51,485 nt of DNA from Chloroflexota bacterium (GCA_018657655.1 JABHWQ010000464.1:1-51485); one strand, 5' to 3'. Shown: positions 5,808-25,339, numbered from the stretch's first letter. Translations and numbers: made by a program. The notes: generated by a model not told the origin, from the sequence alone.

Positions 5808-6578
5808 ATGAAAACAGTTATTCTCTGTGGTGGACAGGGGATGCGGTTGCGTGAGGAGACCGAGTTTCGCCCCAAACCACTTGTCCCCATCGGCGGAAAA
5901 CCTATTCTCTGGCACATTATGAAAATCTATGCTCATTATGGGTTCCGCGAATTTGTGCTTCCACTTGGTTATCGTGGTGACATGATCAAAGAGTGGTTAT
6001 TGAACTATGAAACAATGACCAATGATTTCAGTATCCATCTTGGCGAGAATAGTTCAATTGAGTATCATGATTCACATTTAGAACAGGATTTTGAAGTCAC
6101 TTTGGCCGATACTGGCCAGAATACGATGACTGGTGGAAGAATAAAACTGGTAGAGAAATATATATCTGGTGATACTTTCATGGTGACATATGGTGATGGG
6201 GTAGCAGATATAGATATTCGCTCACTCATGGAGTATCATCACAGTCATGGTCGGCTAGCTACAGTTACAGTAGTACATCCATCCCAACGATTCGGTGTCC
6301 TTGCGTTAGATGAGAGTTCATCAGTAGTCGATTTTGCCGAAAAACCTCAGATGAAAGACTGGATTAGTGCTGGGTTTTTGGTGTTCAACCGACGTATATT
6401 TAACTATTTAGAAGGTGCTGATTGCATTTTAGAGCGTGAGCCTCTTGAACGCTTAACTTCCGAAGGTGAGCTAGTGGCTTATAAGCATGAGGGTTTCTTC
6501 TATGGTATGGATACATACCGTGATTATATGCATCTCAACGATTTGTGGGATAAAGGACAAACTCCATGGACGAAATGA
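5808..6578 (+). CDS. rfbF: Glucose-1-phosphate cytidylyltransferase
   Basis: 256 aa. [41 protein letters not shown] is a near-canonical RfbF/DdhA N-terminus, and the length is right. Confidence 0.9.
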
Positions 6579-7570
6579 CAATAGATAATCCTTTTTGGCA
6601 AGATCGTCCTGTTTTTGTGACTGGAAGTACGGGGTTACTGGGGGGTTGGTTGGTGCAGCGACTTCTTCAACTTGGCGCTGATGTTATTTGCTTGGTACGA
6701 GATTGGGTACCACAAAGTGAAATGTTTCAGGTACACCTTGTTGACAAAGTGAGGGTTGTTCGCGGTGATATCTGCGACCAAAAGCTCTTGGAAAGAATAT
6801 TGGGAGAATATGAAATAGAGACTGTTTTCCACCTAGCCGCTCAAACAATTGTGGGTATTGCTAACAGGAATCCTATTTCAACTTTCGAGACCAATATTGG
6901 TGGAACTTGGGCGCTGCTAGAGGCATGTCGGCGAAGTCCAAAAGTGAGTGGAATTGTAATGGCTTCGTCTGACAAAGCATATGGTGATCAAATAATACTG
7001 CCGTATAACGAAGATACGCCACTGCAGGGACGATTTCCCTATGACGTAAGTAAATCTTGTGCTGATCTAATCTCTCAATCGTATTCCAAAACTTATGAGG
7101 TTCCAGTAGCCATCACTCGCTGCGGTAATTTCTATGGTGGAGGCGACTTGAACTGGAATCGCATTGTTCCAGGAACCATCCGCTCAGTGCTGCGTGGTCA
7201 AAAGCCCATGATACGATCTAATGGGCAGTATGTGCGCGATTATTTTTATATAGAGGACGGTGTGGCTGCCTATATTTTACTAGCCGAGAAACTTGCAACA
7301 AGCCCACAGTTGAGTGGTGAGGCGTTTAACTTTTCTAATGAAAGGCCAGTATCTGTAATTGAGCTTGTTCAAGATATCCTACAGTTGATGGCATCCGATA
7401 TGGAGCCAATAATAGAAAATGAGGCTGCGAACGAAATACTCCAACAATATCTAAGTGCCGACAAGGCGAGACAGGTGATTGGCTGGCATCCTATATTCAA
7501 TTTGGATGAGGGCCTAAAAAGAACTATTTCTTGGTATGAGGACTTTTTTGACCATGAGCGATACGCATGA
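6566..7570 (+). CDS. rfbG: CDP-glucose 4,6-dehydratase (extended SDR)
   Basis: 334 aa. [19 protein letters not shown] is the Rossmann motif and YDVSKSCAD is the YxxxK motif. The gene overlaps the rfbF stop (alternative ATGA start at 6575) and sits between rfbF and rfbH as in ddh/asc clusters. Confidence 0.7.
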
Positions 7571-8873
7571 TTTGTTAAGAAAACAGATTATTGGCTTGGT
7601 TCGTGACTATCATAAAGCTGCGTTCCCACCGCAACAATTTGTGCCTGAAGAGAGTCCTGTTCCTTATGCAGGACGTATCTTTGATAGTGAAGAACTTGTC
7701 AACTTGGTAGAAGCATCTTTAGACTTCTGGTTAACTACCGGCCGTTTTGCGGATCAGTTCGAAGATGAGTTTGCTAAATTCTTTGGATTAAATCATTGCA
7801 TTTTGGTCAATTCTGGTTCTTCAGCTAATCTGCTAGCACTATCTTGCCTAACCTCACATAAACTTGGTGAACGACGCTTAAGGCCAGGTGATGAGGTTAT
7901 CACTATTGCTTCAGGTTTCCCGACAACGGTTAATCCAATCATACAAAATCGGCTCATACCAGTGTTTGTTGACATAGATATTCCAACTTATAATGTGGAC
8001 GTGACACAACTTGAGAAAGCCCGTTCCAAGCGGACTCGCGCTGTGATGCTGGCCCACACACTAGGAAACCCTTTTGATGTAGCGGCTGTCGTGCATTTTG
8101 CTAAACAGCACGATTTGTGGCTCATCGAGGATTGCTGCGATGCAGTGGGCTCGACCTATAATGGGCAGAAAATCGGAACTTTTGGAGATATCGCCACAGT
8201 TAGCTTCTATCCTGCTCATCATATCACGATGGGCGAAGGAGGAGCAGTTCTCACGAACTCCCCTCTCCTTGAAGAGTTGGCGCTTTCATTTCGCGACTGG
8301 GGGCGTGATTGCTGGTGTAATCCGGGCAAAGACAATACTTGTGGTAAGCGTTTCGAGAAGCAATTGGGTGACCTTCCCTATGGATACGACCATAAATATG
8401 TTTATTCACATATTGGCTACAATCTTAAGCTAACTGATATGCAAGCAGCTGTGGGGGTAGCACAGTTAATAAAACTCCCGGCTTTTATCAAGAAAAGACA
8501 GGATAATTTCCGCTACCTATATGAAGGGCTCAAAGATATAGAGCATTACTTCATTTTACCTCAGGCTACCCCAAACTCAGTCCCAAGTTGGTTCGGTTTT
8601 CCGCTGACGTTGCGATCAGAAGTCCCCTTCACTCGAAACGATGTAGTACAGCATTTAGAAAATCATAGAATCGCTACAAGATTACTCTTTGGGGGTAATT
8701 TAGTGCGTCAACCAGCATATCGCGACATTGAACATAGAGTTGTTGGTAATCTGGTAAACTCGGATTCTGTGATGCACCAAACCTTCTGGTTTGGGGTGTA
8801 TCCGGGGCTTACGCAAGCTATGCTTGACTATGTGATTATGACTCTGAAAACATTCGTAAATGGCAAACGGTAA
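7554..8873 (+). CDS. rfbH: CDP-6-deoxy-4-keto-hexose 3-dehydrase (E1; PMP/[2Fe-2S] enzyme of the DegT/DnrJ/EryC1 fold)
   Basis: The RfbH-like block is [35 protein letters not shown]. The catalytic Lys is replaced by His ([14 protein letters not shown], compared with [14 protein letters not shown] in the aminotransferase at 38705). An exact C-X57-C-X1-C-X7-C cysteine motif is present, counted from codons 8136, 8310, 8316 and 8340. The ORF track starts at 7536, but the ATG at 7554 is more likely. Confidence 0.85.
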
Positions 8874-8991: not shown

Positions 8992-10500
8992 ATGAGTAAT
9001 CTTAATTCAGCAGAACCATTATTCGTTTTTGACATAGCAAATAATCACATGGGTAGTAGCGAGCATGGCCTCAAAATCATAAGACAAATTCATGATGTCA
9101 CCGAAGGCTTTGCTTTCAGTTTCGGATTCAAGCTTCAGTACCGTAATCTGGACACTTTTATTCATGCAGACTTCAAAACGAGATTGGATTTTAAGTATGT
9201 CAAGCGTTTCTCTGAGACTCGTCTTCCGTGGGACGAGATGAAAATGATGAAAGATGAGGCGAAGAAACTGGGGTTTATCACGATATGTACACCTTTTGAT
9301 GAACCCTCTGTTGATAAGATTGAAGAACATGATTTTGATATCATCAAAGTCGCAAGTTGCTCATTCACTGATTGGCCTCTTTGGGAACGGATTTCCAGAA
9401 CTGAGAAGCCCATAATTGCCTCCACTGCTGGCGCTTCCCTTGGGGATATTGACAAAGTGGTAGCCTTCCTAGAGCATCGAGGGAAAGACTTTGCTCTCAT
9501 GCATTGTGTAGCGGAGTATCCCACATCTGACGCCAATTTAGAGTTGGGGCAGATAGAACTTCTCGAAAAGCGATTTCCTCAAATTAGAGTCGGATATTCT
9601 ACACATGAGAGTCCTGATAACATGGCCGCTATTAAAGTAGCAATCGGCAAAGGCTCAAGTATATTTGAAAGGCATGTTGGTTTGGAGACAGAACAAATTA
9701 GTTTAAACGCATACTCCGCTACTCCAGAGCAAATCAGGCGATGGTTAGAGTCAGCCCAAATGGCGTTTGAGATGTGCGGCGTTCACGAGAAACGCTCAGA
9801 ATTCAGTGAAAGGGGAATTACGGAGTTAAAGGCATTACGTAGAGGGGCGTTTGCGATGCGCCAAATTAAAAAAGGGGAACGGATAGGTCAGACAGACGTT
9901 TTCTTTGCGATACCTACCTTCCCAGGTCAGATTACTGCCAACGACATGTCAAAATACTCTGACTTCTACACCGAAGCAGATATTGAAGAAAAAGCTCCCT
10001 TGCTTGATTCTAATACACTGCGGAGAGATATTCGAGAAAACATATATACTATCATATTACAGGTTAGGGAACTGGTTGAAAGAAGTGGTGTGATAGTTCC
10101 CAAACAGGTTGATGTTGAAATCTCTCACCATTATGGCGTCGATCGCTTTTACGACTTCGGGCTTACCATATTTACAGTGGTAAATCGTGAATACTGCAAG
10201 AAGTTGCTCATCCTTTTGCCAAAACAGCAGCATGCTGAGCAGTCGCATAAGGTAAAGGAAGAGACTTTTCATATCTTATATGGCGACTTATGGGTTAACT
10301 TAGATGGAGAAGTCAGGCAATGTAATCCTGGAGATGTAGTTACGGTGAATAGAGAGGTAAAGCATAGCTTTGGCACTGATACGGGGGCTATCATTGAAGA
10401 GATTTCATCAACACATTTTGCTGATGACTCTTCTTATACTGATATTGCTATTATGCAAAATAAACATCGTAAAACCCAACTGACGTACTGGCTTGACTAA
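8992..10500 (+). CDS. NeuB-family PEP-condensing synthase fused to SAF and C-terminal cupin domains
   Basis: 502 aa. NeuB landmarks are FDIANNHMG, KLQ, TPFDE, IKVASC, ASTAG, LMHCVAEYPT, VGYSTHE and ERHVGLE. A SAF-like segment (RRGAFAMRQIKKGERI) follows. The last ~140 aa are cupin-like (QHAEQSHKVKEETFHILYGDLWV...VKHSF). Confidence 0.7.
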   Translation: MSNLNSAEPLFVFDIANNHMGSSEHGLKIIRQIHDVTEGFAFSFGFKLQYRNLDTFIHADFKTRLDFKYVKRFSETRLPWDEMKMMKDEAKKLGFITICTPFDEPSVDKIEEHDFDIIKVASCSFTDWPLWERISRTEKPIIASTAGASLGDIDKVVAFLEHRGKDFALMHCVAEYPTSDANLELGQIELLEKRFPQIRVGYSTHESPDNMAAIKVAIGKGSSIFERHVGLETEQISLNAYSATPEQIRRWLESAQMAFEMCGVHEKRSEFSERGITELKALRRGAFAMRQIKKGERIGQTDVFFAIPTFPGQITANDMSKYSDFYTEADIEEKAPLLDSNTLRRDIRENIYTIILQVRELVERSGVIVPKQVDVEISHHYGVDRFYDFGLTIFTVVNREYCKKLLILLPKQQHAEQSHKVKEETFHILYGDLWVNLDGEVRQCNPGDVVTVNREVKHSFGTDTGAIIEEISSTHFADDSSYTDIAIMQNKHRKTQLTYWLD

Positions 10501-10518
10501 TCTTTTTAATTTAGATAT

Positions 10519-11127
10519 TTGGATAAAGGAACAGTGAAGACAATTGCCTGGGATGTGGATGACGTTCTGAATGACCTGATGCGATCATGGTTTGACGACT
10601 CTTGGAGGCCCTCTCATCTAGATTGCTTGCTGGATTATGACGGGATTGTAGAAAACCCGCCGCATGAACTGTTATGTGTGAGTATGTCTGAGTATTTGAT
10701 TTCGCTGGATAGCTTTCGCTTCTCAGAAGCTATCAGAAAAATGCGCCCTGTACCAGAGGTGATAACTTGGTTCCACCAACATGGAGAGCGATTTCGACAC
10801 ATAGCACTCACGGCAACACCTCTACGGGCTGCACCTTTATCTTCCGCTTGGGTTATGCATCATTTCGGTAAGTGGATTCGCTCTTTTAATGTGATTCCCT
10901 CCAAACGACAAAGTGAACAAATACCAATATACGACCAGTCAAAAGAGGAATTTTTGAGATGGTTTGGGAGAGTAGATATCTTAGTCGATGATAGTCCGGT
11001 GAATGTCGCGGAAGCACAAACATTGGGGATTCAGGCAATACTCTTACCACGCCCTTGGAATCAAAGCCCTTTGACTCTAGTTGAGGCTCTCAACGTCTTG
11101 GCGACTTTGGCAGATACGACTTCTTGA
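10519..11127 (+). CDS. HAD-superfamily phosphatase (NT5C/5-prime-nucleotidase-like)
   Basis: 202 aa with the DxDxV nucleophile motif near the N-terminus (IAWDVDDVLND). The start is TTG at 10519 (alternative GTG at 10534). It lies directly after the NeuB-like gene. Confidence 0.6.
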   Translation: MDKGTVKTIAWDVDDVLNDLMRSWFDDSWRPSHLDCLLDYDGIVENPPHELLCVSMSEYLISLDSFRFSEAIRKMRPVPEVITWFHQHGERFRHIALTATPLRAAPLSSAWVMHHFGKWIRSFNVIPSKRQSEQIPIYDQSKEEFLRWFGRVDILVDDSPVNVAEAQTLGIQAILLPRPWNQSPLTLVEALNVLATLADTTS

Positions 11128-11160
11128 AAGGCACAGTCAGAGACTGAGGTAATAGAGCTT

Positions 11161-12963
11161 ATGAAATTATCTGATTACATATTTCAACGCCTTGCTAAAG
11201 AGGGGGTACGACATGTCTTCCTTTTGCCAGGCGGTGGTGCAATGCATCTTGTGGATTCTCTTGGTAAGTGCAAGGAAATTGAATTTGTCTGCAATCTCCA
11301 CGAGCAGGCTTGTGCAATAGCAGCCGATGCTTATAGCCAATATACGGGCAACCTTGGTGTGGCATTGGTTACGACTGGCCCGGGGGGCACAAATACTGTA
11401 ACTGGGGTGGCGGGGGCTTGGCTTGATTCCACCCCCTGTTTATTCATTTCGGGTCAAGTCAAACGAACTGACCTCATTGGTGATCGTGGAGTGCGACAGA
11501 TGGGCTTCCAGGAACTCAATATTGTGCATATAGTAGAATCCATTACCAAGTATGCAGTCACAGTTGTTGACCCAAATTCTATTAGGTATCACCTAGAAAA
11601 GGCACTGTTTTTTGCCAGAAATGGCCGTCCAGGCCCTGTATGGCTTGATATTCCGCTAGATGTACAAGCTGCCCATATTAACGAGGATGAGTTGGAAGGA
11701 TTCGATCCTAAGGAAATCACAACATCACTTAAAAACAGCGTGCTCAAACAACAGATAAGCGAGCTAATACAACTTCTCAATCAGGCTGAGAGACCAGTTA
11801 TATTAGTAGGAAATGGTGTTAGGCTAGCAAAAGCGATAGGAGACTTTTACCAACTAATTGAGACCCTTCAAATTCCCGTTCTCACCACATGGAGAGCAAC
11901 TGATTTTTTAGGAGAAGACCATCCTCTCTATATTGGCCGACCAGGGGCTATTGGGCAGCGAGGGGCTAATTTCGCCCAGCAGAATTCAGATTTGATATTG
12001 ATTCTTGGGGCGCGTCTTGATCTTGGGCAAACAGGATACAGCCACTCTAATTTTGCTCGAACTGCTAAAAAAATCATGGTTGATGTTGATAATGCCGAGA
12101 TAGAGAAGATGGAATTTAAGATCGACATACCAATATGCGTTGATGCAAAGGGTTTTATTCGAGAATTTCTCCAACAAAAGAATACCACAGTAGTCAAAGA
12201 TCGATCATCTTGGTTGTCACGCTGTCGAGAATGGAAGTCTAGTTACCCTGTTGTCCTGCCCAACTACTGGGATGAGTCGATGGGTGTAAGCCTCTACGTT
12301 CTTGTAGACGTGCTATCTGATGAGATGTCCGCTGACGATTTACTGGTGCCAGGCAGCTCAGGAGCTTGCAGTGAGGTTACTATGCAAGCGTTCAGGGTGA
12401 AGCCAGGCATGCGTGTTTTGAATAATCCTGGCCTTGGAGCAATGGGGTATGGGCTTCCTGCCAGTATAGGTGCCTGCCTAGGGAGCGGGCGTAAACGGAC
12501 GATATGTGTTGTTGGGGATGGGGGATTCCAACTAAATATCCAAGAGTTAGAGACAATTAAGCGTTTAAATCTACCAATTAAGGTTTTCGTGTTGAACAAT
12601 GAAGGATACGCCTCTATAAGGGCGACGCAGCAGTCCCATTTTGAGGGGCGTTTCGTAGCTAGTAGTGTATCAAGCGGATTAACCCTTCCCGATAGCCTCA
12701 AGATTGCTTCTGCCTATGGCTTAGCTTCGGCACAAATATTGAACCATTCTCACATTACGGAACATGTACGTCAAGTGCTAGAGCAAGACGGCCCCGTAGT
12801 GTGTGATGTGATGATCTCGCCTAATCAGAGCACTTCACCACGACTGTCTTCGATGCAAGGAGCGAATGGTACGATGGTGTCTAAACCGTTGGAGGACTTA
12901 TGGCCTTTTCTGGACCGCAAAGAATTCTTGGCCAATATGATTATTCCACCATTAGATGAGTAG
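11161..12963 (+). CDS. Thiamine-diphosphate-dependent enzyme, acetolactate-synthase large-subunit-like (YerE-like candidate sugar carboligase)
   Basis: 600 aa. The Pyr domain reads HEQACAIAADAYSQYTGNLGVALVTTGPGGTN. The ThDP/Mg motif is GDGGFQLNIQELETIKRLNLPIKVFVLNNEGY (GDG-X-NN). No small regulatory subunit or other ilv genes are nearby. Confidence 0.8.
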   Translation: MKLSDYIFQRLAKEGVRHVFLLPGGGAMHLVDSLGKCKEIEFVCNLHEQACAIAADAYSQYTGNLGVALVTTGPGGTNTVTGVAGAWLDSTPCLFISGQVKRTDLIGDRGVRQMGFQELNIVHIVESITKYAVTVVDPNSIRYHLEKALFFARNGRPGPVWLDIPLDVQAAHINEDELEGFDPKEITTSLKNSVLKQQISELIQLLNQAERPVILVGNGVRLAKAIGDFYQLIETLQIPVLTTWRATDFLGEDHPLYIGRPGAIGQRGANFAQQNSDLILILGARLDLGQTGYSHSNFARTAKKIMVDVDNAEIEKMEFKIDIPICVDAKGFIREFLQQKNTTVVKDRSSWLSRCREWKSSYPVVLPNYWDESMGVSLYVLVDVLSDEMSADDLLVPGSSGACSEVTMQAFRVKPGMRVLNNPGLGAMGYGLPASIGACLGSGRKRTICVVGDGGFQLNIQELETIKRLNLPIKVFVLNNEGYASIRATQQSHFEGRFVASSVSSGLTLPDSLKIASAYGLASAQILNHSHITEHVRQVLEQDGPVVCDVMISPNQSTSPRLSSMQGANGTMVSKPLEDLWPFLDRKEFLANMIIPPLDE

Positions 12964-13107: not shown

Positions 13108-14124
13108 ATGCAATGTCCATGTTGTGAATCAGACAGAGTAATTCTTTCCAATACCCCCGAACCACATATGTTTTGCAGGGTATGTTTCCATCGCTGTAAG
13201 ACCCTCATCCCATCTAAGAACTACTATAAAAACTTATCAGGCCGATCAAAAATGCTTGAAGAAAATTTGGGAAGGAAAAGTCGAGAAAGGCTTGAATTTT
13301 TAGAGCAATATTTGCAGAGAGGAATGCTAATATTAGAAATTGGCTGCGCTGAGGGGGCACTCGGTGAAGTCATTAGACGTAATTTTGATGTTGCCTATTA
13401 TGGCATAGAGCCTTCACTTGATGCCAAGATTGCCATATCAAGATTAGACGAAGTGTGGGTATCAATTAACAAAGTACCTCCAAATCTGCAATTTGATATC
13501 ATAATAGCATTTCATGTGTTCGAACACATTCACAATATTGGAAATATGATGTCTAAGTTATGTAAGTTGCTTAGTAGTAACGGGATTATCATATTTGAGA
13601 CGCCTAATTATTTTGGAAACACACGGTTACCATGGGACTTCAATAAGGAGCATATCCACTTGTTTAGTCCGGCATCTATATCATGTCTACTTGAAAAACG
13701 GGGGGTTGGCGTGAGAGAACTGAGTACAGGTCATTACGAGTCAGCCATCTATGATGACTCAATGAGGGTAGTTGGCTCTAAGAAAAAAGGGGTAAAGGAA
13801 CTAAAGCATAATTTTGTTGATCGTCTTCAGCGCTTCTTGGGTGATCGATATATAATATATGGGATCGGGGGGGATTTTGAAGCTCTAGTGTTACCTTACG
13901 TAAAAGCTTCTAGTGTAATCGCGATTATAGATAGTTCCAAGGACAAGGTTGGTAAGCGCGTGATTGGCAAGACCGTTCAAGGGCCAGGAGTAATTGATGA
14001 TTATCTCACTGAAATATTTTTCATTGCCACATATCGATACCAAAATCAAATTATACAAGTGCTCAATGAGAAGGGGATTTGTAGATCGCATATTATTACT
14101 TTGCAAGATATTTTAGAGAATTGA
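13108..14124 (+). CDS. SAM-dependent methyltransferase with N-terminal Cys4 zinc ribbon and C-terminal Rossmann-like domain (NDP-hexose C-methyltransferase-like architecture)
   Basis: 338 aa. It has a Cys4 ribbon (CPCC...CRVC), SAM motif I (LEIGCAEGALG), FDIIIAFHVFEHI, and a C-terminal IIYGIGGDF...IDSSKDKVGKRVIGKTVQGP resembling the C-terminal domain of TylC3-type C-methyltransferases. Confidence 0.65.
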   Translation: MQCPCCESDRVILSNTPEPHMFCRVCFHRCKTLIPSKNYYKNLSGRSKMLEENLGRKSRERLEFLEQYLQRGMLILEIGCAEGALGEVIRRNFDVAYYGIEPSLDAKIAISRLDEVWVSINKVPPNLQFDIIIAFHVFEHIHNIGNMMSKLCKLLSSNGIIIFETPNYFGNTRLPWDFNKEHIHLFSPASISCLLEKRGVGVRELSTGHYESAIYDDSMRVVGSKKKGVKELKHNFVDRLQRFLGDRYIIYGIGGDFEALVLPYVKASSVIAIIDSSKDKVGKRVIGKTVQGPGVIDDYLTEIFFIATYRYQNQIIQVLNEKGICRSHIITLQDILEN

Positions 14125-14182
14125 TTTTAGAGAGCATCACCAAATATAATGTGCGGAAGAGTTAACGTGGAGGGCTCGTTTA

Positions 14183-15247
14183 ATGACAGATAGCAAAAAA
14201 GCTGATCTTTGCGATAGAATGCAAACCCGGGAGAGGCTCAAAATAGAAAAGCCTATTGTATACAATAAATTCATAGAACTGGATGCAAAATTGAATAAAG
14301 GAGAGGCCCCTCCCCCGGTAATTGAAATCGGTTATCGGTATGATTGTAACCTCAAATGTAAACACTGTTTTGCAAGCCTGTTCGACAAGAAAGAGAAAAG
14401 TCTATCATTATTGGATATGAAAAACTTATCTGAGCAGGCGAATGAGCTTGGCATATATCAGTTTATACTCCAGGGCGGAGAGCCACTTTATTGGCCGGAT
14501 TTCGACGATGTAGTGAATGCCATTAATCCGAAAGAATTTTATATGGGGCTTGTTACTAATGCCACATTACTAAACCGAGAAAAAATCATTCATCTTAGAA
14601 ATATTGGAATCGATAAAATCGTCATGAGTCTTGATTCCTACGATGTTGATCAATTTGAAGGAATTCGTAATCGACCTGGGTTGTTTGACCACACTATTGC
14701 CATGCTGCTTCAGGCTAAAGAGGTTGGCTTGCGGGTTGTGATCAATACTTTAGCCACAAAACAAAACGTCAGAGATCCCCAGTTGCTCGAATTGGTTAAG
14801 TTCGCGGAGAAGCATAACATCATAGTTTACGTGAATTTTGCAGCGCCGATTGGGAATTGGGAAGGCCGGTATGACCTGCTTCTCGATCAGGATGATGCAG
14901 ATTATATTTATAATTTGAATCGGCAGCATGAGGTGATAAAGAGAGACATATTCCCTTATATGGGGATTAAAGTGGGGTGTCCCGCTTTTAGAGAGATTGT
15001 GTATATAACACAATATGGCGATGTCCTTCCATGCCCATTTATACACATTTCCGTTGGCAATATATTTGATGAACCTCTGTCTCGGATTATAGAGAAAGGA
15101 ATGCGAGTTAAGTGGTTTAAGGATCGGTCTCAGGTATGCCTGGCGTGTGAAGACGTAAATTTCATAAAAAACAAGATATCAAAAACATATGGATTGCCTT
15201 CTCCTGTCAGCATGCACGAGATATTTACGGAAGATGAATTTGATTAA
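14183..15247 (+). CDS. Radical SAM enzyme with Cys-rich C-terminal auxiliary-cluster (twitch/SPASM-like) region
   Basis: 354 aa. The CxxxCxxC motif is CNLKCKHC, with GGEPL downstream. C-terminal cysteines are GCPAF...LPCPF...VCLAC. Confidence 0.85.
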   Translation: MTDSKKADLCDRMQTRERLKIEKPIVYNKFIELDAKLNKGEAPPPVIEIGYRYDCNLKCKHCFASLFDKKEKSLSLLDMKNLSEQANELGIYQFILQGGEPLYWPDFDDVVNAINPKEFYMGLVTNATLLNREKIIHLRNIGIDKIVMSLDSYDVDQFEGIRNRPGLFDHTIAMLLQAKEVGLRVVINTLATKQNVRDPQLLELVKFAEKHNIIVYVNFAAPIGNWEGRYDLLLDQDDADYIYNLNRQHEVIKRDIFPYMGIKVGCPAFREIVYITQYGDVLPCPFIHISVGNIFDEPLSRIIEKGMRVKWFKDRSQVCLACEDVNFIKNKISKTYGLPSPVSMHEIFTEDEFD

Positions 15248-15271
15248 TATGGTGAATCAAAGATAACTGCT

Positions 15272-16555
15272 ATGTACATGTATATTGGAATTGAAATCAG
15301 CTCTTGGTGTAATGCTAAGTGCCCGTGGTGTTTTACTACTAAGCCCGCCGATAGGGTTAATTTTAACCCAGTTGCGAATGTGATGAGCCTAGATACTTTT
15401 ATAGACGTAATCGAACGGTTAGAAACATTGGGTTTGCTTCATGATGATGTTGTTATTAATCTTTACGAAATCGGCGAACCTTTTCTAAACAGAGATATAT
15501 CTAGAATTATCAGTTATTTGAATTCTAAATCTCTTAAATATGCCATAAGCACCAATGCTTCAGTCTTACCATCATTTGAAGAAGGAACCAACATTTTAAG
15601 TAATTTATCCTATCTTATTATTTCTATGCCAGGCTTTAGTCAAGAGTCTTATGATAGAGTACACGGTTTTCGGTTTGACAGAATTAAGAAGAATATCATA
15701 GGACTTATAACAAATTTTCGCAATAGCGGTTTCATAGGAGATGCCAGACTTATCTATCACGTCTATCAGCTTAATATAGATGAGATATATAAAGCCAAGG
15801 CATTTGCTGATGAAAACCATATTGACTTCTATCCTTATTATGCGATTCTTTATGAATGGAAATATGTGTGGGAATACCTATCCGATACCCTTTCGTATGA
15901 TTTGCTTAAGAAAGCCTCTGAAGAATTATTCTTGGGGAATATTGAGAAGACAATATCGGCTCGCAGGCCTGATTTTGTGTGTGAGTTTCTTAATATGTTG
16001 TTGATTGATGTAGATTGCGATTTAAAGACTTGTTGTCAAATCAAGAAAGGGGATCCGGGCTATTCATATGGCAGTATTTTCAACTTATCAGCAGAAGAAA
16101 TAATAACAAAACGAACTACTCAGCAGATATGCAAGAAATGTCAGACAAAAGGAATGGATTATTACCTATCTTGCTACACATTATTTAATCTACATTCCAG
16201 CACTGCGGGGCAATCTGAAAACGGCCATACACATAAAGACTTACTGAAATTAATACGGGGGAGTGCTGGGCAGGAAATCATTTTGTTTGGTGCCGGTGAA
16301 TTCGGTATAAAAGCGGTCAGATATCTAAATGACGAAAACATTGGGGTCAATTATTTCTCGGATAACAGCCCATTAAAAATTGGGAAACAAATTTCTGGAG
16401 TTAATGTTATTGCGCCTTGGGATATACTTAATCAATGCACAGATCCATTGGTTATTATTACTACCATAAATCACAGGCAGGTATTTAATCAGATTTCTCA
16501 GTTAGGAATCAGATCAGTTTATTACTTCCCGCTAGAGGTATATATACAACAATGA
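15272..16555 (+). CDS. Radical SAM enzyme with Cys-rich middle region fused to a C-terminal Rossmann-like domain
   Basis: 427 aa. The CxxxCxxC motif is CNAKCPWC, 13 aa from the start. Cys-rich segments are CEF...DCDLKTCCQ...CKKCQ. The C-terminal EIILFGAGEFG...SDNSPLKIGKQISGVNVIAP aligns with the C-terminus of the methyltransferase at 13108. Confidence 0.8.
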   Translation: MYMYIGIEISSWCNAKCPWCFTTKPADRVNFNPVANVMSLDTFIDVIERLETLGLLHDDVVINLYEIGEPFLNRDISRIISYLNSKSLKYAISTNASVLPSFEEGTNILSNLSYLIISMPGFSQESYDRVHGFRFDRIKKNIIGLITNFRNSGFIGDARLIYHVYQLNIDEIYKAKAFADENHIDFYPYYAILYEWKYVWEYLSDTLSYDLLKKASEELFLGNIEKTISARRPDFVCEFLNMLLIDVDCDLKTCCQIKKGDPGYSYGSIFNLSAEEIITKRTTQQICKKCQTKGMDYYLSCYTLFNLHSSTAGQSENGHTHKDLLKLIRGSAGQEIILFGAGEFGIKAVRYLNDENIGVNYFSDNSPLKIGKQISGVNVIAPWDILNQCTDPLVIITTINHRQVFNQISQLGIRSVYYFPLEVYIQQ

Positions 16556-17577
16556 AGAAATATTCTGAACTTCGCGATACCGAACGTTTCTCGGTAGAGA
16601 GATTATTGCCACTGAAATTTCCCCTAAGTATATATATTGAGACAACAAATCGATGTGGTTTTCGATGTCGATATTGCCCTCTATCACTTTCCGATTATGC
16701 AAAAATCATAGGCGAGTCCAGGAATATGAGTCTTCTCGAGTTTAAGAATATCTGCGATAGTATCCAAGTGGGCGGACGACTCAAAGTACTTCGGTTTTAT
16801 CTAATGGGCGAGCCCTTGTTAAATCCGCATTTGTCAGAAATGATAAAGGTGGCTTGTCAAATGAGGTTGGCTGAAAGAACAGAAATCACTACCAACGCGG
16901 TACTTCTAAATGGAGAAAAGTCTCGAGAGATTATTAATTCAGGGCTGGATTATCTCAGAGTCAGCATATCGAGCGTGGATCAGAGTCGACACGAATACAT
17001 TACCCAAACAAACATCCAAGTAGAACATATTTATAGCAATATCAAACAATTTAAACAGATTCGAGACGGAATGGGGCGTCAAAAGCCGTTTCTCTACGTT
17101 AAAATGCTTGACTCCTTAAACAATGTAGAAAATTTAAAATTTTTGCAAATGTATCAAGCGGTCGGGGATGAAATAGTCATTGAAAAGCCAATGAATTGGG
17201 ATAGCTTCAATAATCATGATTTGCTTCGGTCTACCTATAAAGAAGATAAGATGCCCGATTCAGAGGGAATGTACCCGTACCCGAAAACAGTGTGTCCCTT
17301 TCCTTTTTATACCCTTGCAGTCAATGTTAACGGGGATGTGACGGTATGTTGTGTTGATTGGAACAAGGGAACCAAAGTTGGTAATGTTTTTGAAGCCACT
17401 CTCAAATCTATCTGGGATGGGGATGAAATGCGGGATTTCCGTCGGATGCATATATTAAGGAAGCGAACTCTAAATTCCTCATGCGCCAATTGCCAATTTC
17501 TTTCTACTGTCCCCGATAATTTGGATAACATGTCAGAGTCAAAGATTAAAGCTATAATTGGTTCGAGTCAATTATAA
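16552..17577 (+). CDS. Radical SAM / SPASM-like enzyme
   Basis: 341 aa. The CxxxCxxC motif is CGFRCRYC. The C-terminal Cys set is CPFPF...VCCVDW...CANCQ. The gene has a 4-nt ATGA overlap with the preceding gene. Confidence 0.85.
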   Translation: MKKYSELRDTERFSVERLLPLKFPLSIYIETTNRCGFRCRYCPLSLSDYAKIIGESRNMSLLEFKNICDSIQVGGRLKVLRFYLMGEPLLNPHLSEMIKVACQMRLAERTEITTNAVLLNGEKSREIINSGLDYLRVSISSVDQSRHEYITQTNIQVEHIYSNIKQFKQIRDGMGRQKPFLYVKMLDSLNNVENLKFLQMYQAVGDEIVIEKPMNWDSFNNHDLLRSTYKEDKMPDSEGMYPYPKTVCPFPFYTLAVNVNGDVTVCCVDWNKGTKVGNVFEATLKSIWDGDEMRDFRRMHILRKRTLNSSCANCQFLSTVPDNLDNMSESKIKAIIGSSQL

Positions 17578-17660
17578 AGAGCAATGCAAAATATTGAAGT
17601 TGTAGATGTGAACCATGCCTTTAGATTAGGTGATGGTGGTTCAATCCATGAAAGAGAAGA

Positions 17661-18683
17661 ATGAAAATGGGTTTACCTGTCTTATCAATATGTATTCCAA
17701 CATTCAATCGTTCACAGTATCTTAAGGAGTGTCTGGAAAGTGTGTTATCGTCAGCTAAAGGGTACGAGGATCAAATCGAAATAGTAATTTCTGATAATGC
17801 CAGTACTGATGATACCGCCTCAGTTGTGAGTGAATTCGAAAAACGCAGCTCAAGAATAAGGTATCACAGAAATGACACTAATATCTATATAGAAAACTTT
17901 TTTGTGGTATCTGGATTGGCATTGGGGGAATACGTATGGATATTTGGTGATGATGATAAAGTGATGGATGGGGCTATCCCTACCATCTTAAATCGAATTA
18001 AGTCAGGATATGACTTAATATTTTGCAACTATTCAATTTGGTCAAAAGATTTTTCTACATTACAGAACGAAAGGAACCGTTTGGTTGATTTAGAAGAAGA
18101 GTATAATGATGCAAATTTATTACTGGAACGCATCGGGATCTACTTGGGTTACATATCGATTTGTATAATCAAAAAGAACGTCTTCTTTAGTACTCCGCCC
18201 GGGCTACACATGGAATACGGTTTTCCCCATGTATATTGCATGTACGCAGGGTTAGCTACAAATTGTCGTGCGGTATATATTCCCGCAACGTTAGTGCTCA
18301 ATCGCGCGGGCAATGTTTACTTACCTGAGTGGAATAAATTCTTTATAACCGGAACCTCTCTAGTTTTTGAGGCGCTTCTGGAAAAAGGGTATACTCAAAA
18401 GGCAGTATATCGTGCCAAACACCAACATCTCAGATCTATCATTAGTTATAGTTGGACGCAATCTCAGAGTTCTGCTGATTTAAAAACGGTGGCTCAACTA
18501 GCATTACCTCATTATAAGAAAGACTGGCTATTTTGGGTAACTTGCATGCCTATCGCATATCTTCCTGTCCCGCGGTTCTTCTTGAGATTCACCATAAAAA
18601 TGGCTCAATTAGTGTTAGTTGTGAACAGATCGGTGTCGAGAAGATTCAACCATGCCTTCAGCTTTTTAGCGAGACGAAGATAG
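17661..18683 (+). CDS. Family 2 glycosyltransferase
   Basis: 340 aa. LSICIPTFNRSQYLKECLESVL...IVISDNASTDDT is a typical GT-A/GT2 N-terminus. The C-terminus has a hydrophobic segment. Confidence 0.8.
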   Translation: MKMGLPVLSICIPTFNRSQYLKECLESVLSSAKGYEDQIEIVISDNASTDDTASVVSEFEKRSSRIRYHRNDTNIYIENFFVVSGLALGEYVWIFGDDDKVMDGAIPTILNRIKSGYDLIFCNYSIWSKDFSTLQNERNRLVDLEEEYNDANLLLERIGIYLGYISICIIKKNVFFSTPPGLHMEYGFPHVYCMYAGLATNCRAVYIPATLVLNRAGNVYLPEWNKFFITGTSLVFEALLEKGYTQKAVYRAKHQHLRSIISYSWTQSQSSADLKTVAQLALPHYKKDWLFWVTCMPIAYLPVPRFFLRFTIKMAQLVLVVNRSVSRRFNHAFSFLARRR

Positions 18684-18818
18684 TGTGGAGTGGTTTATTG
18701 AGTTAGGGCATTCTGTTAAGAGGGTGGAACTATACCGTAGAAGCGGTCATGTGAACCTTGGCAAACAACAAGTTTTTACCGATAAGAATTTCAGCGGGCT
18801 TTTGAAGGGCGTTATGGC

Positions 18819-19757
18819 ATGAATCAAGTCGTTATTACAGGTGCCACCGGGCCTTTAGGCATTGCCTTATGTAAGTATCTTGCAGAATTAGGAATATCTG
18901 TGACCGCAATAGCTCGCCCTGGGTCTAGACGCAGGGCAGATATCCCGGTTTCACAGAAGATTCAGATTATCGAGTGTGATCTTGGTGATTTATTTTCGCT
19001 TAGTGATAAGATTGGTTATAATTATGATACTTTTTTTCATATTGCGTGGGATACAGGGTCGCGCGAAATTGTTAATGACCCGCTTATTCAGTCGCGTCAG
19101 GTTATCTATCCCTTAGATGCTGTGCGGCTTGCCCATAATTTGGGGTGTAGGGCATTTGTTGGTGCCGGATCTCAGGGTGAATATGGTAACAGTGGAAGTT
19201 TACTTGCGCCAGATTCTCCGGAAAGGCCTGTATCAAGCTACAGTATTGCAAAATATGCTGCGGGTAAACTCAGTCGACAGTTGTGTGAATCTTTCGGGAT
19301 GCGGCATTGTTGGGGCCGTATTTTGAGTTTGTATGGACCGTTTGATAAAGAGACAACGAGTATTATGTATTGCGTTTATACTTTGTTAAAGGGGGAGAGA
19401 CCAGTATTAACTAAATCAGAACAGATGTGGGATTTCATTTACAGTGTTGATTGCGCAAAAGCCTTTTATCTTATTGCGACAAAGGGAAGACATGGCATGG
19501 CTTATCCAATAGGTACGGGAAAGGCTAGGTCAATGAAAGAATATTTTGAATGTATCAGAGGTTATATAAACCCATCGCTTAAATTAGGTTTCGGAGAGAA
19601 GCCTTATGCTCCAAACCAGCTTATGCTTCTATGCTCGGATAATACGGTGCTAAAGACTGATACCGGGTTTGAGCCGGAGTACACTTTTGAAGAAGGGATT
19701 AGAGAGACTATTGAATGGGCCAAGAAGAGGGTGCAGACGGAGAATAATAGCGGATAA
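18819..19757 (+). CDS. NAD(P)-dependent epimerase/dehydratase/reductase family SDR (candidate sugar ketoreductase)
   Basis: 312 aa with ITGATGPLGIALCKYL (Rossmann) and YSIAKYAAGK (YxxxK). It is the last gene of the + strand operon. Confidence 0.75.
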   Translation: MNQVVITGATGPLGIALCKYLAELGISVTAIARPGSRRRADIPVSQKIQIIECDLGDLFSLSDKIGYNYDTFFHIAWDTGSREIVNDPLIQSRQVIYPLDAVRLAHNLGCRAFVGAGSQGEYGNSGSLLAPDSPERPVSSYSIAKYAAGKLSRQLCESFGMRHCWGRILSLYGPFDKETTSIMYCVYTLLKGERPVLTKSEQMWDFIYSVDCAKAFYLIATKGRHGMAYPIGTGKARSMKEYFECIRGYINPSLKLGFGEKPYAPNQLMLLCSDNTVLKTDTGFEPEYTFEEGIRETIEWAKKRVQTENNSG

Positions 19758-24215: not shown

Positions 24216-25339
24216 TTCTTGTACCTCTCAATCAGATTTTCATAAAGTCTCTCTATTCCGTCCATCCCCATATTTTCCTGTTCAAGAGAGAAATTCTCTT
24301 TTATCATTTGCCTATTGGCGTATCTCATATGTTTCCGTTGGTCGGAATTCCGAAATAAATGTATGATCTTTGAAGCTAAGGTTTCAGGGCTCCTCAAAGG
24401 GATTACAAATCCATTTACTTCATCTTTGACCCATTTCCTGTTTTCGCCGTAGTCAGTGACTATCACCGGCAATCCGCAGGCCATTGCTTCTTTTGAACTG
24501 AGCGAAAAGCCGCCATCTTCCAGTGATGTAGAAACATAAATATCGGCAGATGTAAGATATTTCGGGATCTCATCGTTTGGTATGAAGCCCACGAACTTGA
24601 TATTGTCTGCAACTCCTAGCGAATGAGCCAACGTGCGTAAATTTCTTTCTTGGTTACCCTTACCAGTAATTATGAATTTGGCTTCGGGAAATTCTATTAG
24701 CACCGAAGGTATGGCTTTGATTAAAGTGTCACCATCATATATCGTCTGAAGGGCTCTCAAGCTTATTACTACGGGTGAGTCAAGTATTCCCAATTCCTTT
24801 TTCAAATTATCATTCCTATTTTCCGGGCTGAATTTAGCGATATCCAGACCAGTGTAAAGGATGTGTACCTTCTCCGGTAGGACACCAAAGTCTATTGTAA
24901 CTCTATCGCGTAAAGTATCTCCGTATAGAACAATAAAATCCGCTCTCTTGAGAGCATATTTCACCAAACAAAAAGTGCCTCCGTTAGCGTGGAGTAAGTC
25001 TGTTCCCCACGGACTCATTACAATTGGCTGAAATCCGGTGAGTCGATTGTATAGACCGGCAAGCATGCCGAAATGCCCCATATAGTGGCCATGTATTATT
25101 TCAGGACGAATTTTTCTAATTAATAATGCAATTTCAATAAGTGCTCCATATCGAGCTAGGTAATGTGGGGGGCAGAAAATACGATGTATAGATACCTTTG
25201 GATCTATATTATGCATACCATTTGGGAGATGCCAAGTAATCAAATCCACCTTCCAACCACGCAGGGCAAAGTTATTTACCCACCTAATTGTATGGATTGA
25301 ACAGGCGTTGCCCATATAGCACACATGTCTATTCATCAC
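24212..25339 (-). CDS. GT-B glycosyltransferase (family 4 / group 1)
   Basis: 375 aa. The C-terminal EDGGFSLSSKEAMACGLPVIVTD is the E-x-E donor-binding region of GT4 enzymes. Confidence 0.8.
   Translation of the reverse strand: MMNRHVCYMGNACSIHTIRWVNNFALRGWKVDLITWHLPNGMHNIDPKVSIHRIFCPPHYLARYGALIEIALLIRKIRPEIIHGHYMGHFGMLAGLYNRLTGFQPIVMSPWGTDLLHANGGTFCLVKYALKRADFIVLYGDTLRDRVTIDFGVLPEKVHILYTGLDIAKFSPENRNDNLKKELGILDSPVVISLRALQTIYDGDTLIKAIPSVLIEFPEAKFIITGKGNQERNLRTLAHSLGVADNIKFVGFIPNDEIPKYLTSADIYVSTSLEDGGFSLSSKEAMACGLPVIVTDYGENRKWVKDEVNGFVIPLRSPETLASKIIHLFRNSDQRKHMRYANRQMIKENFSLEQENMGMDGIERLYENLIERYKK

What the first reader, a model, noticed from the sequence alone, without database searches (positions are those of the whole stretch)
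13843..16552. The same ~90-aa C-terminal domain is appended to both the methyltransferase and one radical-SAM enzyme
- The methyltransferase C-terminus is RYIIYGIGGDFEALVLPYVKASSVIAIIDSSKDKVGKRVIGKTVQGPGVIDDY...FFIATYRYQNQIIQVLNEKGI (13843-14121).
- The radical-SAM C-terminus is QEIILFGAGEFGIKAVRYLNDENIGVNYFSDNSPLKIGKQISGVNVIAPWDIL...VIITTINHRQVFNQISQLGI (16271-16552).
- Both share the pattern I-x-x-x-G-x-G-x-(13-18)-D-x-S-x-x-K-x-GK-x-x-x-G-x-x-V-x-x-P...I-x-T...I-x-x-x-L-x-x-x-GI.
- This resembles the C-terminal domain of TylC3-type sugar C-methyltransferases and the N-terminal domain of NeuD/PglD-type enzymes.
- Having this module on a radical-SAM core is an unusual fusion. It argues that both enzymes dock the same nucleotide-sugar or carrier.
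Basis: seen in the sequence. Interest (0 to 1): 0.6.

Follow-up and report, generated by a model that had tools for sequence, protein, structure and literature searches.

The report
Shared nucleotide-binding tail on two sugar enzymes
A methyltransferase and a radical-SAM enzyme in one CDP-sugar gene cluster each end in the same small nucleotide-binding domain, a widespread add-on of sugar-coat enzymes that probably grips the nucleotide handle of their substrate; it is real but only moderately novel.

Summary
The last ~95 residues of the methyltransferase (MT, 13840-14121) and of radical-SAM enzyme B (16271-16552) are homologous: hhalign probability 96.5%, E 8e-10, score 56 against 12±2 for shuffles. 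The tails are a small Rossmann-like nucleotide-binding module. Pfam splits this module into Methyltransf_14, PglD_N, C2185-like_N and CoA_binding_3. Both tails keep the Gly-loop, Asp and Lys that hold dTDP in VioB.

The MT as a whole is a remote TcaB9/KijD1-type sugar C-methyltransferase, so its tail is part of a known architecture.

The radical-SAM fusion is uncharacterised but not unique. Of 67 relatives in reference genomes, 12 carry the module (7 at the C-terminus, 5 at the N-terminus). Other radical-SAM types carry it too.

The module occurs in about 32,700 representative proteins, mostly glycosyltransferases and methyltransferases. The two tails are not each other's closest relatives, so this is not a local duplication.

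The upstream genes make a CDP-3,6-dideoxy-4-keto-hexose. The best reading (~50%) is that the module anchors the CDP handle of the shared substrate. The main rival (~30%) is a WbaP-type nucleotide sensor and dimeriser.

Earlier notes of this scan cover this same stretch of this genome only; none were shown for other DNA.

The parts
13108..14124 (+). Methyltransferase, 338 aa: Zn-ribbon + class I SAM MT core + C-terminal module. A remote TcaB9/KijD1/MtmC-type sugar C-methyltransferase.
   Evidence: ORF. PF13489 at E 8e-22. Family profile hits TcaB9/KijD1/MtmC at E ~1e-17. Foldseek of the AF2 model (pLDDT 93.9) puts the same proteins on top, E 4e-18 over ~400 columns.
13108..13200 (+). MT zinc-ribbon (C3, C6, C23, C26, H28)
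   Evidence: C23, C26 and H28 are invariant; C3 and C6 are nearly invariant across 26 homologs. Three short strands in the model.
13261..13713 (+). MT SAM-binding core, with invariant E139-H140 and E181-H182
   Evidence: PF13489 covers residues 52-202. In the HMM alignment H140 and E181-H182 align with the His and the 'DEH' of KijD1. The TcaB9 mutant entries H181N, E224Q and H225N name these positions.
13840..14121 (+). MT tail: nucleotide-binding Rossmann-like module (residues ~245-338; G252, G254, G255, D275, K280, G282)
14183..15247 (+). Radical-SAM/SPASM enzyme A (354 aa), no module
   Evidence: PF04055 at E 3e-22 and SPASM at E 2e-7. Conserved neighbour in related loci.
15272..16555 (+). 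Radical-SAM enzyme B (427 aa): core + Cys-rich auxiliary region + linker + module
   Evidence: ORF. PF04055 scores 29.8 bits against a cut-off of 29.5. Family alignment.
15290..15961 (+). rSAM-B core with CX3CX2C (C13, C17, C20)
   Evidence: C13, C17 and C20 are invariant. Weak PDB hits to CteB, BtrN, GDGT-MAS and BlsE over the first 100-150 residues.
15980..16156 (+). rSAM-B Cys-rich region (C237, C254, C255, C287, C290), a probable auxiliary Fe-S (twitch/SPASM-like) site
   Evidence: Conserved cysteines. SPASM at E 8e-4 in ortholog P0002.
16157..16270 (+). Poorly conserved linker between the rSAM-B catalytic part and the module
   Evidence: Variable columns ~380-400 of alignment A1. More distant homologs end here.
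16271..16552 (+). rSAM-B tail: nucleotide-binding Rossmann-like module (G340, G342, G345, D364, N365, K369, G371)
16552..17577 (+). Radical-SAM/SPASM enzyme C (341 aa), no module
   Evidence: PF04055 and SPASM at E 1e-15
5808..8873 (+). CDP-sugar genes: glucose-1-P cytidylyltransferase, a 4,6-dehydratase whose best match is CDP-glucose 4,6-dehydratase, and RfbH/E1 3-dehydrase. They define the nucleotide handle (CDP) of the pathway.
   Evidence: TIGR02623 scores 314.5 bits (cut-off 300). TIGR02622 is the best hit at 233 bits but is below its cut-off of 278. NF011936 RfbH scores 742 bits (cut-off 423).
8992..12963 (+). NeuB-like+cupin, HAD phosphatase and YerE-like ThDP enzyme, directly upstream of the MT
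   Evidence: Pfam and NCBIfam. The same genes sit upstream of rSAM-B orthologs in L070 and L071.
17661..19757 (+). GT2 glycosyltransferase and SDR, the downstream end of the cassette
   Evidence: GT2 (+GtrA) follows the rSAM genes in L069-L072.

Best explanation
Both tails are independent copies of one small (~95 aa) Rossmann-like nucleotide-binding module. Its layout is beta1, Gly-rich loop, helix, beta2 ending in Asp, a Lys five residues later, then three more strands. Pfam covers this module piecemeal as Methyltransf_14, PglD_N, C2185-like_N and CoA_binding_3.

Shown:
- The two tails are homologous.
- The fold is a small Rossmann-like domain.
- The residues that contact dTDP in VioB are conserved in both tails.
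- The MT has the TcaB9-like three-domain architecture.
- The operon encodes the CDP-sugar enzymes RfbF and RfbH, with a dehydratase between them whose best match is CDP-glucose 4,6-dehydratase.

Inferred:
- The upstream genes make CDP-4-keto-3,6-dideoxy-hexose, and a YerE-like ThDP enzyme branches it.
- In the MT, the module plays the part of the C-terminal domain of TcaB9/KijD1. It holds the nucleotide (here CDP) of the sugar substrate while the His/Glu-His site methylates next to the keto group.
- In radical-SAM B, the same kind of module is tethered by a flexible linker. It captures the CDP handle of the same or the next intermediate and presents the sugar to the [4Fe-4S]/SAM site.
- Binding would go through the Gly loop (diphosphate/ribose), Asp364/Asp275 and Lys369/Lys280 (ribose hydroxyls).
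For: Homology.

Fold:
- The AF2 tail model has pLDDT 90.7.
- Foldseek hits: Rex NADH domain (E 4e-5), 3NKL (TM 0.69/0.60, rmsd 2.9 Å), VioB with a TDP-sugar (rmsd 2.0 Å over 79 columns), 2G6T, PglB, PerB, WbaP and FkbM.
- Sequence profile hits in the PDB: 3NKL at E 2e-11, Rex at E 4e-9, VioB at E 2e-3, WbaP at E 5e-3.

Ligand residues:
- In VioB, Gly8 and Gly11 lie against the ribose and beta-phosphate, Asp32 and Lys37 bind the ribose, and Asn33 binds the thymine (PMC9271549).
- The HMM alignment puts G340, G342, D364, N365 and K369 of rSAM-B on G8, G10, D32, N33 and K37.
- The MT has G252-x-G254-G255, D275 and K280.

MT resembles TcaB9. hhalign of the MT tails against a PF08484 protein gives 94.8%.

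The MT slot keeps the module even when the MT type changes: a sister cassette has an FkbM MT with the module at its N-terminus.

CDP pathway: RfbF and RfbH score above curated cut-offs in the window. All three genes do so beside the 69%-identical rSAM-B ortholog in L069. The YerE substrate is CDP-4-keto-3,6-dideoxy-D-glucose (PMC9306805).

In this genome the module is otherwise found only in a canonical NeuD/PglD-type acetyltransferase.
Against: - There are no binding data.
- The best structural and sequence matches of the rSAM tail are Rex (NADH sensor) and the PglF/WbaP-type domain. In WbaP that domain binds uridine nucleotides allosterically and makes the dimer.
- 55 of 67 rSAM-B relatives lack the module, so catalysis does not need it.
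- The module occurs at either terminus, in 2-4 tandem copies, alone, and on glycosyltransferases that already bind NDP-sugars. This fits an autonomous regulatory or assembly module at least as well.
- TcaB9-type enzymes are not among the 50 best fold matches of the rSAM tail alone.
- The MT model superposes on TcaB9 with rmsd ~22 Å overall, so the domain arrangement differs or is uncertain.
- The window's own tails score below the Pfam gathering thresholds.
Confidence: 0.5

Rival explanations
1. The module is a nucleotide sensor and/or oligomerisation domain, as proposed for the PF13727 domain of WbaP and PglF. It would bind a pathway by-product or pool nucleotide (CMP, CDP, UMP) and tune activity. 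It could also assemble the cluster's enzymes into dimers or a metabolon, without touching the substrate.
For: - The WbaP domain binds UMP, UDP and UTP, makes the dimer, and UMP inhibits the enzyme (PMC10942596).
- 3NKL (PglF/WbpM-type domain) is the best PDB sequence match of the module profile, E 2e-11, and WbaP itself is matched.
- The module sits at either end of the same rSAM family.
- It occurs in 2-4 tandem copies, as a stand-alone tandem protein, and on GTs, LicD and AsnB-like enzymes.
- A poorly conserved linker precedes the rSAM-B module.
Against: - In the MT the module occupies the place of the substrate-binding C-terminal domain of TcaB9-type enzymes.
- The conserved residues are those that hold the substrate nucleotide in VioB.
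- In this 51-kb island only two adjacent tailoring enzymes carry it, not the GTs or the other enzymes.
Confidence: 0.3
2. The rSAM-B tail binds an ADP-containing cofactor (NAD(P)H, CoA or FAD-like), as Rex does. It would serve redox chemistry, for example hydride transfer after radical oxidation or electron supply to the clusters, not substrate recognition.
For: The rSAM tail has a canonical GxGxxG plus an acidic residue at the end of beta2. Rex is its best PDB match by sequence (E 5e-9) and by fold (E 4e-5). There are weak CoA_binding Pfam hits.
Against: - The module is only a five-stranded half-size Rossmann domain.
- Its relatives on sugar enzymes bind NDPs, not NAD.
- The same module sits on methyltransferases and glycosyltransferases, which need no redox cofactor.
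Confidence: 0.12
3. The resemblance is only the generic Rossmann beta-alpha-beta pattern, or chance, with no specific common origin.
For: Pairwise identity is only 26%. The MT-tail profile alone finds nothing significant in the PDB. Neither window tail reaches a Pfam gathering score.
Against: - hhalign gives 96.5% over 98 of ~100 columns, including the C-terminal half beyond the Gly loop.
- Shuffled and reversed controls and the MT's own Rossmann-like core all fail.
- The HMMs find each other, and nothing else, in the window.
- The secondary-structure order is identical.
- Both families carry the same precomputed PF22674 label.
Confidence: 0.03

Closest known systems
N-terminal domain of class I sugar N-acetyltransferases (PglD, VioB, PerB, NeuD; PF17836 / TIGR03570 N-terminus)
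   Same: It is a ~85-90 aa five-stranded sheet flanked by helices. It has a Gly-rich loop after beta1 and Asp(-Asn) at the end of beta2 with Lys at +5. In VioB these residues hold the dTDP ribose and diphosphate. Foldseek rmsd to VioB is 2.0 Å over 79 columns.
   Different: Here the module is at the C-terminus and fused to a radical-SAM or methyltransferase core, not to a left-handed beta-helix trimer. Scores are far below family cut-offs.
TcaB9 / KijD1 / MtmC / TylC3 NDP-hexose 3-C-methyltransferases, with their C-terminal domain PF08484 (Methyltransf_14)
   Same: The MT has the same order of domains: Zn-ribbon, class I MT core, C-terminal Rossmann-like domain. It also has the same His and Glu-His positions. 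Both tails match the C-terminal part of a PF08484 protein. The structures were solved with dTMP, TDP or dTDP-sugars (titles).
   Different: - The tail covers only about positions 55-145 of the 160-position PF08484 model.
- Tyr222 of TcaB9 is not conserved (Asn179 here).
- There is no PF08421 or PF08484 hit for the window MT.
- The likely nucleotide is CDP, not dTDP.
- The overall superposition is poor, rmsd ~22 Å.
PF13727 (CoA_binding_3) domain of large phosphoglycosyl transferases (WbaP) and PglF/WbpM-type dehydratases (PDB 3NKL)
   Same: It is the best PDB sequence match of the module profile (E 2e-11), with fold TM 0.69/0.60. It is an accessory, non-catalytic nucleotide-binding domain on glycan-pathway enzymes, and uridine nucleotides bind it.
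   Different: In WbaP it is internal, follows a four-helix membrane bundle and dimerises through a swapped beta-hairpin. Whether the window's tails dimerise is unknown.
Rex redox-sensor NAD(H)-binding domain
   Same: It is the best fold and single-family sequence match of the rSAM tail. It shares the GxGxxG ... D-x-x-x-x-K-x-G motif (alignment).
   Different: Rex is a transcription factor with a winged-helix domain. Its Rossmann domain is larger and binds NADH. No redox-sensing context exists here.
C2185-like_N (PF22674; N-terminal domain of CAC2185, PDB 2G6T)
   Same: Both families carry this label in the precomputed annotation. Foldseek rmsd is 2.6 Å over 91 columns.
   Different: The function of the founder protein is unknown. 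My own scans did not reach the family cut-off for the window proteins.

Membership tests
PglD_N / NeuD N-terminal NDP-binding domain (PF17836, TIGR03570 N-terminus) | ~85-aa five-stranded mixed sheet flanked by helices | tested here: met
   AF2 tail model with pLDDT 90.7 and five main strands. Foldseek to VioB gives rmsd 2.0 Å over 79 columns; PglB and PerB are also hit.
PglD_N / NeuD N-terminal NDP-binding domain (PF17836, TIGR03570 N-terminus) | Gly-rich loop after beta1, plus Asp-Asn at the end of beta2 and Lys at +5 that contact the NDP | tested here: met
   rSAM-B G340, G342, D364, N365 and K369 align with VioB G8, G10, D32, N33 and K37. The MT has G252, G254, G255, D275 and K280, with Ser in place of Asn.
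PglD_N / NeuD N-terminal NDP-binding domain (PF17836, TIGR03570 N-terminus) | Followed by a left-handed beta-helix acetyltransferase domain; score above the family cut-off | tested here: not met
   The module is fused to rSAM and MT cores. TIGR03570 scores 22-26 bits against a cut-off of 160.8. PF17836 appears only at 15.9 bits in an ortholog.
Methyltransf_14 (PF08484), C-terminal domain of sugar C-methyltransferases | Pfam gathering score (23.5 bits) | tested here: not met
   Window rSAM-B scores 14.1-17.1 bits and the window MT has no hit. Ortholog P0006 scores 27.6 bits, which passes. hhalign against the PF08484 protein P0054 gives 94.8% and 88.2%.
Methyltransf_14 (PF08484), C-terminal domain of sugar C-methyltransferases | Lies C-terminal to a Zn-ribbon + class I MT core | tested here: met
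   True for the MT. Not true for rSAM-B, where it follows a radical-SAM core.
TcaB9/TylC3-type NDP-hexose C-methyltransferase (whole MT) | Four-Cys zinc ribbon, SAM-binding core, catalytic His181 / Glu224 / His225 | tested here: met
   C3, C6, C23 and C26 are conserved; H140, E181 and H182 are invariant and align with KijD1. These enzymes are the top Foldseek hits at E 4e-18 to 1e-14, against 3e-10 for the next methyltransferases.
TcaB9/TylC3-type NDP-hexose C-methyltransferase (whole MT) | Tyr222 of the YDEH motif; C-methylation of an NDP-4-keto sugar | tested here: not met
   The position two residues before E181 is Asn179 (sequence). Activity cannot be tested with these tools.
C2185-like_N (PF22674) | Pfam match above 27 bits | tested here: inconclusive
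   The precomputed annotation lists it for both families. My hmmscan did not report it for the window proteins, and the genome search found none at E<=0.01. The model works on L012:12554-13612, scoring 37 bits.
CoA_binding_3 (PF13727) WbaP/PglF accessory domain | Nucleotide-binding accessory domain that dimerises through a swapped beta-hairpin | not testable with these tools
   Sequence and fold similarity to 3NKL and WbaP are shown. Dimerisation and ligand binding need experiments or multimer modelling.
Radical SAM superfamily with auxiliary cluster (SPASM/twitch) | CX3CX2C motif and PF04055 score above cut-off; C-terminal Cys cluster | tested here: met
   C13, C17 and C20 are invariant. PF04055 scores 29.8 bits against 29.5, which is marginal. 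C237, C254, C255, C287 and C290 are conserved. The SPASM model hits only weakly, in an ortholog (E 8e-4), so the type of auxiliary domain stays open.

The most novel reading that the evidence does not exclude
The rSAM-B family is a new class of radical-SAM enzymes that work directly on nucleotide-activated (here CDP-linked) branched deoxysugars. The ~95-aa module is a portable 'nucleotide-handle reader' that evolution has bolted repeatedly, at either end, onto radical-SAM enzymes, methyltransferases, glycosyltransferases and amidotransferases. Its role would be to direct them to NDP-linked intermediates of one pathway. The module's sequence would then predict which nucleotide handle an uncharacterised glycan enzyme uses.
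Probability: 0.35. Interest if true: 0.65.

Novelty: new variant of a known kind. Interest (0 to 1): 0.42.

Why it matters
Very few radical-SAM enzymes are known to act on nucleotide-sugars. A family that carries a recognisable NDP-binding module, inside a CDP-3,6-dideoxyhexose/ThDP branching operon, gives a concrete and testable substrate hypothesis for three otherwise opaque radical-SAM genes.

More broadly, the module occurs in about 32,700 representative proteins (5,429 at E<=1e-10). Pfam annotates it under four or five different names, and outside PglD-type acetyltransferases, TcaB9-type methyltransferases and WbaP it has no assigned role. Knowing whether it is a substrate anchor or a nucleotide sensor would improve the annotation of a very large number of surface-glycan enzymes.

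The finding does not overturn anything. The domain family and its nucleotide binding are known.

Tried and rejected
- **Pfam and NCBIfam scans of the MT tail alone.** No hit. The link had to come from profiles.
- **PF22674 search of the own genome.** It found nothing, and neither did the control genomes, so it is uninformative.
- **MT-tail profile against PDB sequences.** Nothing significant; 3NKL and Rex appear only at E 0.5-0.9.
- **Literature on TcaB9, KijD1, MtmC and PglD structures.** The papers are not held. The statement that the TcaB9 C-terminal domain binds the dTDP moiety therefore rests on memory and on PDB entry titles.
- **Recent intra-cluster duplication of the tail.** Rejected. 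Among 384 module instances, the MT tail ranks 227th for the rSAM tail, and the rSAM tail ranks 67th for the MT tail.
- **Generic Rossmann resemblance.** Rejected by shuffles and by the MT's own Rossmann-like core.
- **Literature search for radical-SAM enzymes in yersiniose-type pathways.** None found.
- **Full-length rSAM-B model.** The position of the module relative to the Fe-S/SAM site is therefore unknown.

Full report
**Observation.** BLASTP of the whole proteins aligns only their C-terminal ~100 residues: 26% identity, E 7e-4. I collected homologs of each protein, aligned them and cut out the tails.

The profile-profile comparison gives probability 96.5%, E 7.7e-10 over 98 columns. The controls are clean:
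- 100 column-shuffles score 12.1±2.4 (max 20.8), against 56.0 for the real pair.
- The reversed profile scores 10.7.
- The MT's own SAM-binding Rossmann-like core matches neither tail (probability <1%).

HMMs of each tail family find the other tail (29.4 bits, E 1.6e-7; and 20.1 bits, E 1.6e-4) and no other ORF of the 51-kb window.

**What the domain is.**
- *Family scans.* The rSAM tail alone hits the N-terminal 85 positions of the NeuD/PglB/VioB acetyltransferase model (E 7e-6) and the Rex models. It hits PF08484 and CoA_binding weakly. The 67%-identical ortholog P0006 passes the PF08484 gathering score (27.6 against 23.5 bits). Both protein families carry a precomputed PF22674 'C2185-like_N' label.
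- *PDB sequence searches.* Tail profiles find Rex (E 5e-9), the 141-aa N-terminal domain of a PglF/WbpM-type UDP-sugar dehydratase, 3NKL (E 1e-6 with the rSAM tails, 2e-11 with the broader profile), VioB, WbaP and 2G6T.
- *Fold.* An AlphaFold model of the rSAM tail (pLDDT 90.7) is a small alpha/beta domain. Foldseek returns Rex (E 4e-5), 3NKL (TM 0.69/0.60, rmsd 2.9 Å), VioB with a bound TDP-sugar (rmsd 2.0 Å over 79 columns), 2G6T (rmsd 2.6 Å over 91 columns), PglB, PerB, WbaP and an FkbM methyltransferase.
- *The MT tail.* In the full MT model (pLDDT 93.9) it has the same order of helices and strands.

**Ligand-contact residues.** The VioB structure paper (PMC9271549) describes the contacts to dTDP. 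Gly8 and Gly11 pack against the ribose and beta-phosphate. Asp32 and Lys37 hydrogen-bond the ribose. The Asn33 backbone binds thymine. The HMM alignment of the rSAM tails to VioB puts these residues in register as follows:

| VioB | rSAM-B |
|---|---|
| G8 | G340 |
| G10 | G342 |
| G13 | G345 |
| D32 | D364 |
| N33 | N365 |
| K37 | K369 |
| G39 | G371 |

The MT tail has G252-x-G254-G255, D275, K280 and G282, all invariant or nearly so. The same D-x-x-x-x-K-x-G string is seen in Rex and in KijD1. Both tails therefore keep a nucleotide ribose/diphosphate site. The nucleotide itself cannot be read from the sequence.

**The methyltransferase.** The whole-family profile hits TcaB9, KijD1 and MtmC, which are NDP-hexose 3-C-methyltransferases, at E ~1e-17, from the second half of the zinc ribbon through the MT core. 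The invariant H140 and E181-H182 align with the His and Glu-His of those enzymes. The TcaB9 mutant entries H181N, E224Q and H225N name the positions. Tyr222 is not conserved.

Foldseek of the full model puts these enzymes on top (E 4e-18 to 1e-14) with ~400 aligned columns, meaning all three domains. Other methyltransferases follow at 3e-10 over ~200 columns. The overall rmsd of ~22 Å shows that the relative domain placement differs or is uncertain. hhalign of the MT tails against the C-terminus of a PF08484 protein gives 94.8%.

So the MT with its tail is a remote variant of a known three-domain architecture. That the C-terminal domain of TcaB9 holds the dTDP moiety is my recollection, supported only by the entry titles; I could not reach the papers.

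**The radical-SAM enzyme.** Close homologs (55-76% identity) all carry the tail. Homologs at 28-40% identity end after the Cys-rich region. A scan of one genome per species found 67 family members. Of these, 55 have no module, 7 have it at the C-terminus and 5 have it at the N-terminus. The five N-terminal cases (L020, L021, L023, L028, L067) were not used to build the profile.

The divergent C-terminal tails match both tail profiles at 96-97%. The core has invariant C13, C17 and C20, and conserved C237, C254, C255, C287 and C290. It is only distantly related to CteB, BtrN, GDGT-MAS and BlsE. A variable ~35-residue linker precedes the module. The fusion is thus recurrent and independent of orientation, and the module is dispensable for the fold.

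**Wider distribution.** In the fetched loci, dozens of other ORFs carry the module. They include:
- class I and FkbM methyltransferases;
- other rSAM/SPASM enzymes and a B12-rSAM;
- AsnB-like amidotransferases;
- GT1, GT2, GT61 and WbsX glycosyltransferases;
- a stand-alone tandem pair.

A profile search of 1.84 billion representatives finds 32,691 proteins at E<=1e-3 and 5,429 at E<=1e-10. The best hits hold 2-4 copies. Among the best 149 there are GT2 (~21), GT1/4 (~18), FkbM (16), class I MT (~13), cytidylyltransferase-like (8), LicD (7) and radical SAM (7). Pfam calls the module Methyltransf_14, PglD_N, C2185-like_N or CoA_binding in different members.

Within 384 module instances the two window tails are far from being nearest neighbours, at ranks 227 and 67. 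This excludes a local duplication. In the window's own genome (a 75%-complete assembly) the module occurs only three times. The third copy is an ordinary NeuD/PglD-type acetyltransferase on another contig.

**Context.** Upstream lie a glucose-1-phosphate cytidylyltransferase (above its curated cut-off), a dehydratase whose best match is CDP-glucose 4,6-dehydratase (233 bits, below its cut-off of 278), and RfbH/E1 (742 against 423 bits). Next come a NeuB-like+cupin protein, a HAD phosphatase and an acetolactate-synthase-like ThDP enzyme.

YerE-type ThDP enzymes add acyl branches to CDP-4-keto-3,6-dideoxy-D-glucose (PMC9306805). The block of ThDP enzyme, MT, rSAM-A, rSAM-B, rSAM-C, GT2 and (GtrA) recurs in metagenomic contigs. 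In L069 it sits beside all three CDP-sugar genes, each above its cut-off. In L070 the MT slot holds a non-homologous FkbM methyltransferase that carries the module at its N-terminus.

**Mechanism.** My best reading (about 50%) is that the module anchors the CDP part of the CDP-sugar intermediates. In the MT it would act as in TcaB9-type enzymes. In rSAM-B it would act as a tethered capture domain that feeds the sugar to the radical site.

The main rival (about 30%) is the role shown for the related WbaP domain: nucleotide sensing and dimerisation (PMC10942596). This rival fits the tandem copies, the either-end fusions and the 55 module-free relatives. A Rex-like cofactor role is possible for rSAM-B (about 12%). 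Homology of the two tails is secure (>90%). The ligand and the role are inferred.

**Novelty.** The domain family and its nucleotide binding are known, and the MT architecture is known. A radical-SAM enzyme carrying this module has, as far as I could find, not been described or studied. The breadth of the module across glycan enzymes is under-appreciated. I rate this a new variant of a known kind, of moderate interest.

Noticed in passing
window 8992-12963; L070 1014-5099: A NeuB-like synthase fused to a cupin, plus a HAD phosphatase (a class II aldolase in L070), sits directly before the YerE-like ThDP enzyme. This could supply a functionalised 2-keto-acid donor for a long acyl branch (erwiniose/caryophyllose-type), as proposed for aldolase plus ThDP pairs in PMC9306805.
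   Followed up: partly
window 14001-18000: The MT/rSAM block is more AT-rich (GC 0.376-0.383) than its flanks (0.42-0.46). This is consistent with a laterally acquired cassette.
   Followed up: no
L068 4742-7486 and 7531-9795: Next to an rSAM-B ortholog there is a DegT-type aminotransferase interrupted by an intein with a LAGLIDADG endonuclease (914 aa). There is also a 754-aa fusion of a GT2 glycosyltransferase with a radical-SAM/SPASM enzyme.
   Followed up: no
L069 9403-11040 (-): The RfbH/E1 homolog is called as a 545-aa product with an N-terminal PemK-toxin Pfam hit. RfbH covers residues 118-543. This may be a merged gene call or a real fusion.
   Followed up: no
L022 249-956 (-); P0058, P0057: Some proteins consist of nothing but two tandem copies of the module (236 aa). 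Others have three or four copies before glycosyltransferase domains.
   Followed up: partly
L020, L021, L023, L028 (Roseburia/Hungatella/Lachnospiraceae) ~9700-10930; L067: In these genomes the same rSAM family carries the module at the N-terminus instead of the C-terminus.
   Followed up: partly
G000 contig C458 15644-16327 (L073 845-1528): This is the only other copy of the module in the genome. It is a 227-aa NeuD/PglD-type hexapeptide acetyltransferase, preceded by a 263-aa ORF and followed by an ORF of unknown type.
   Followed up: partly
window 27709-28527 (-), 31621-33060 (-), 25329-27134 (-): The minus-strand operon holds an FkbM methyltransferase, a B12-binding radical-SAM enzyme and an AsnB-like amidotransferase. 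These enzyme types often carry the module elsewhere, but here they lack it.
   Followed up: partly
window 148-1566: A DUF1616 membrane protein, a family I know mainly from archaea (from memory, not tested here), heads the island next to a Wzx-type flippase.
   Followed up: no
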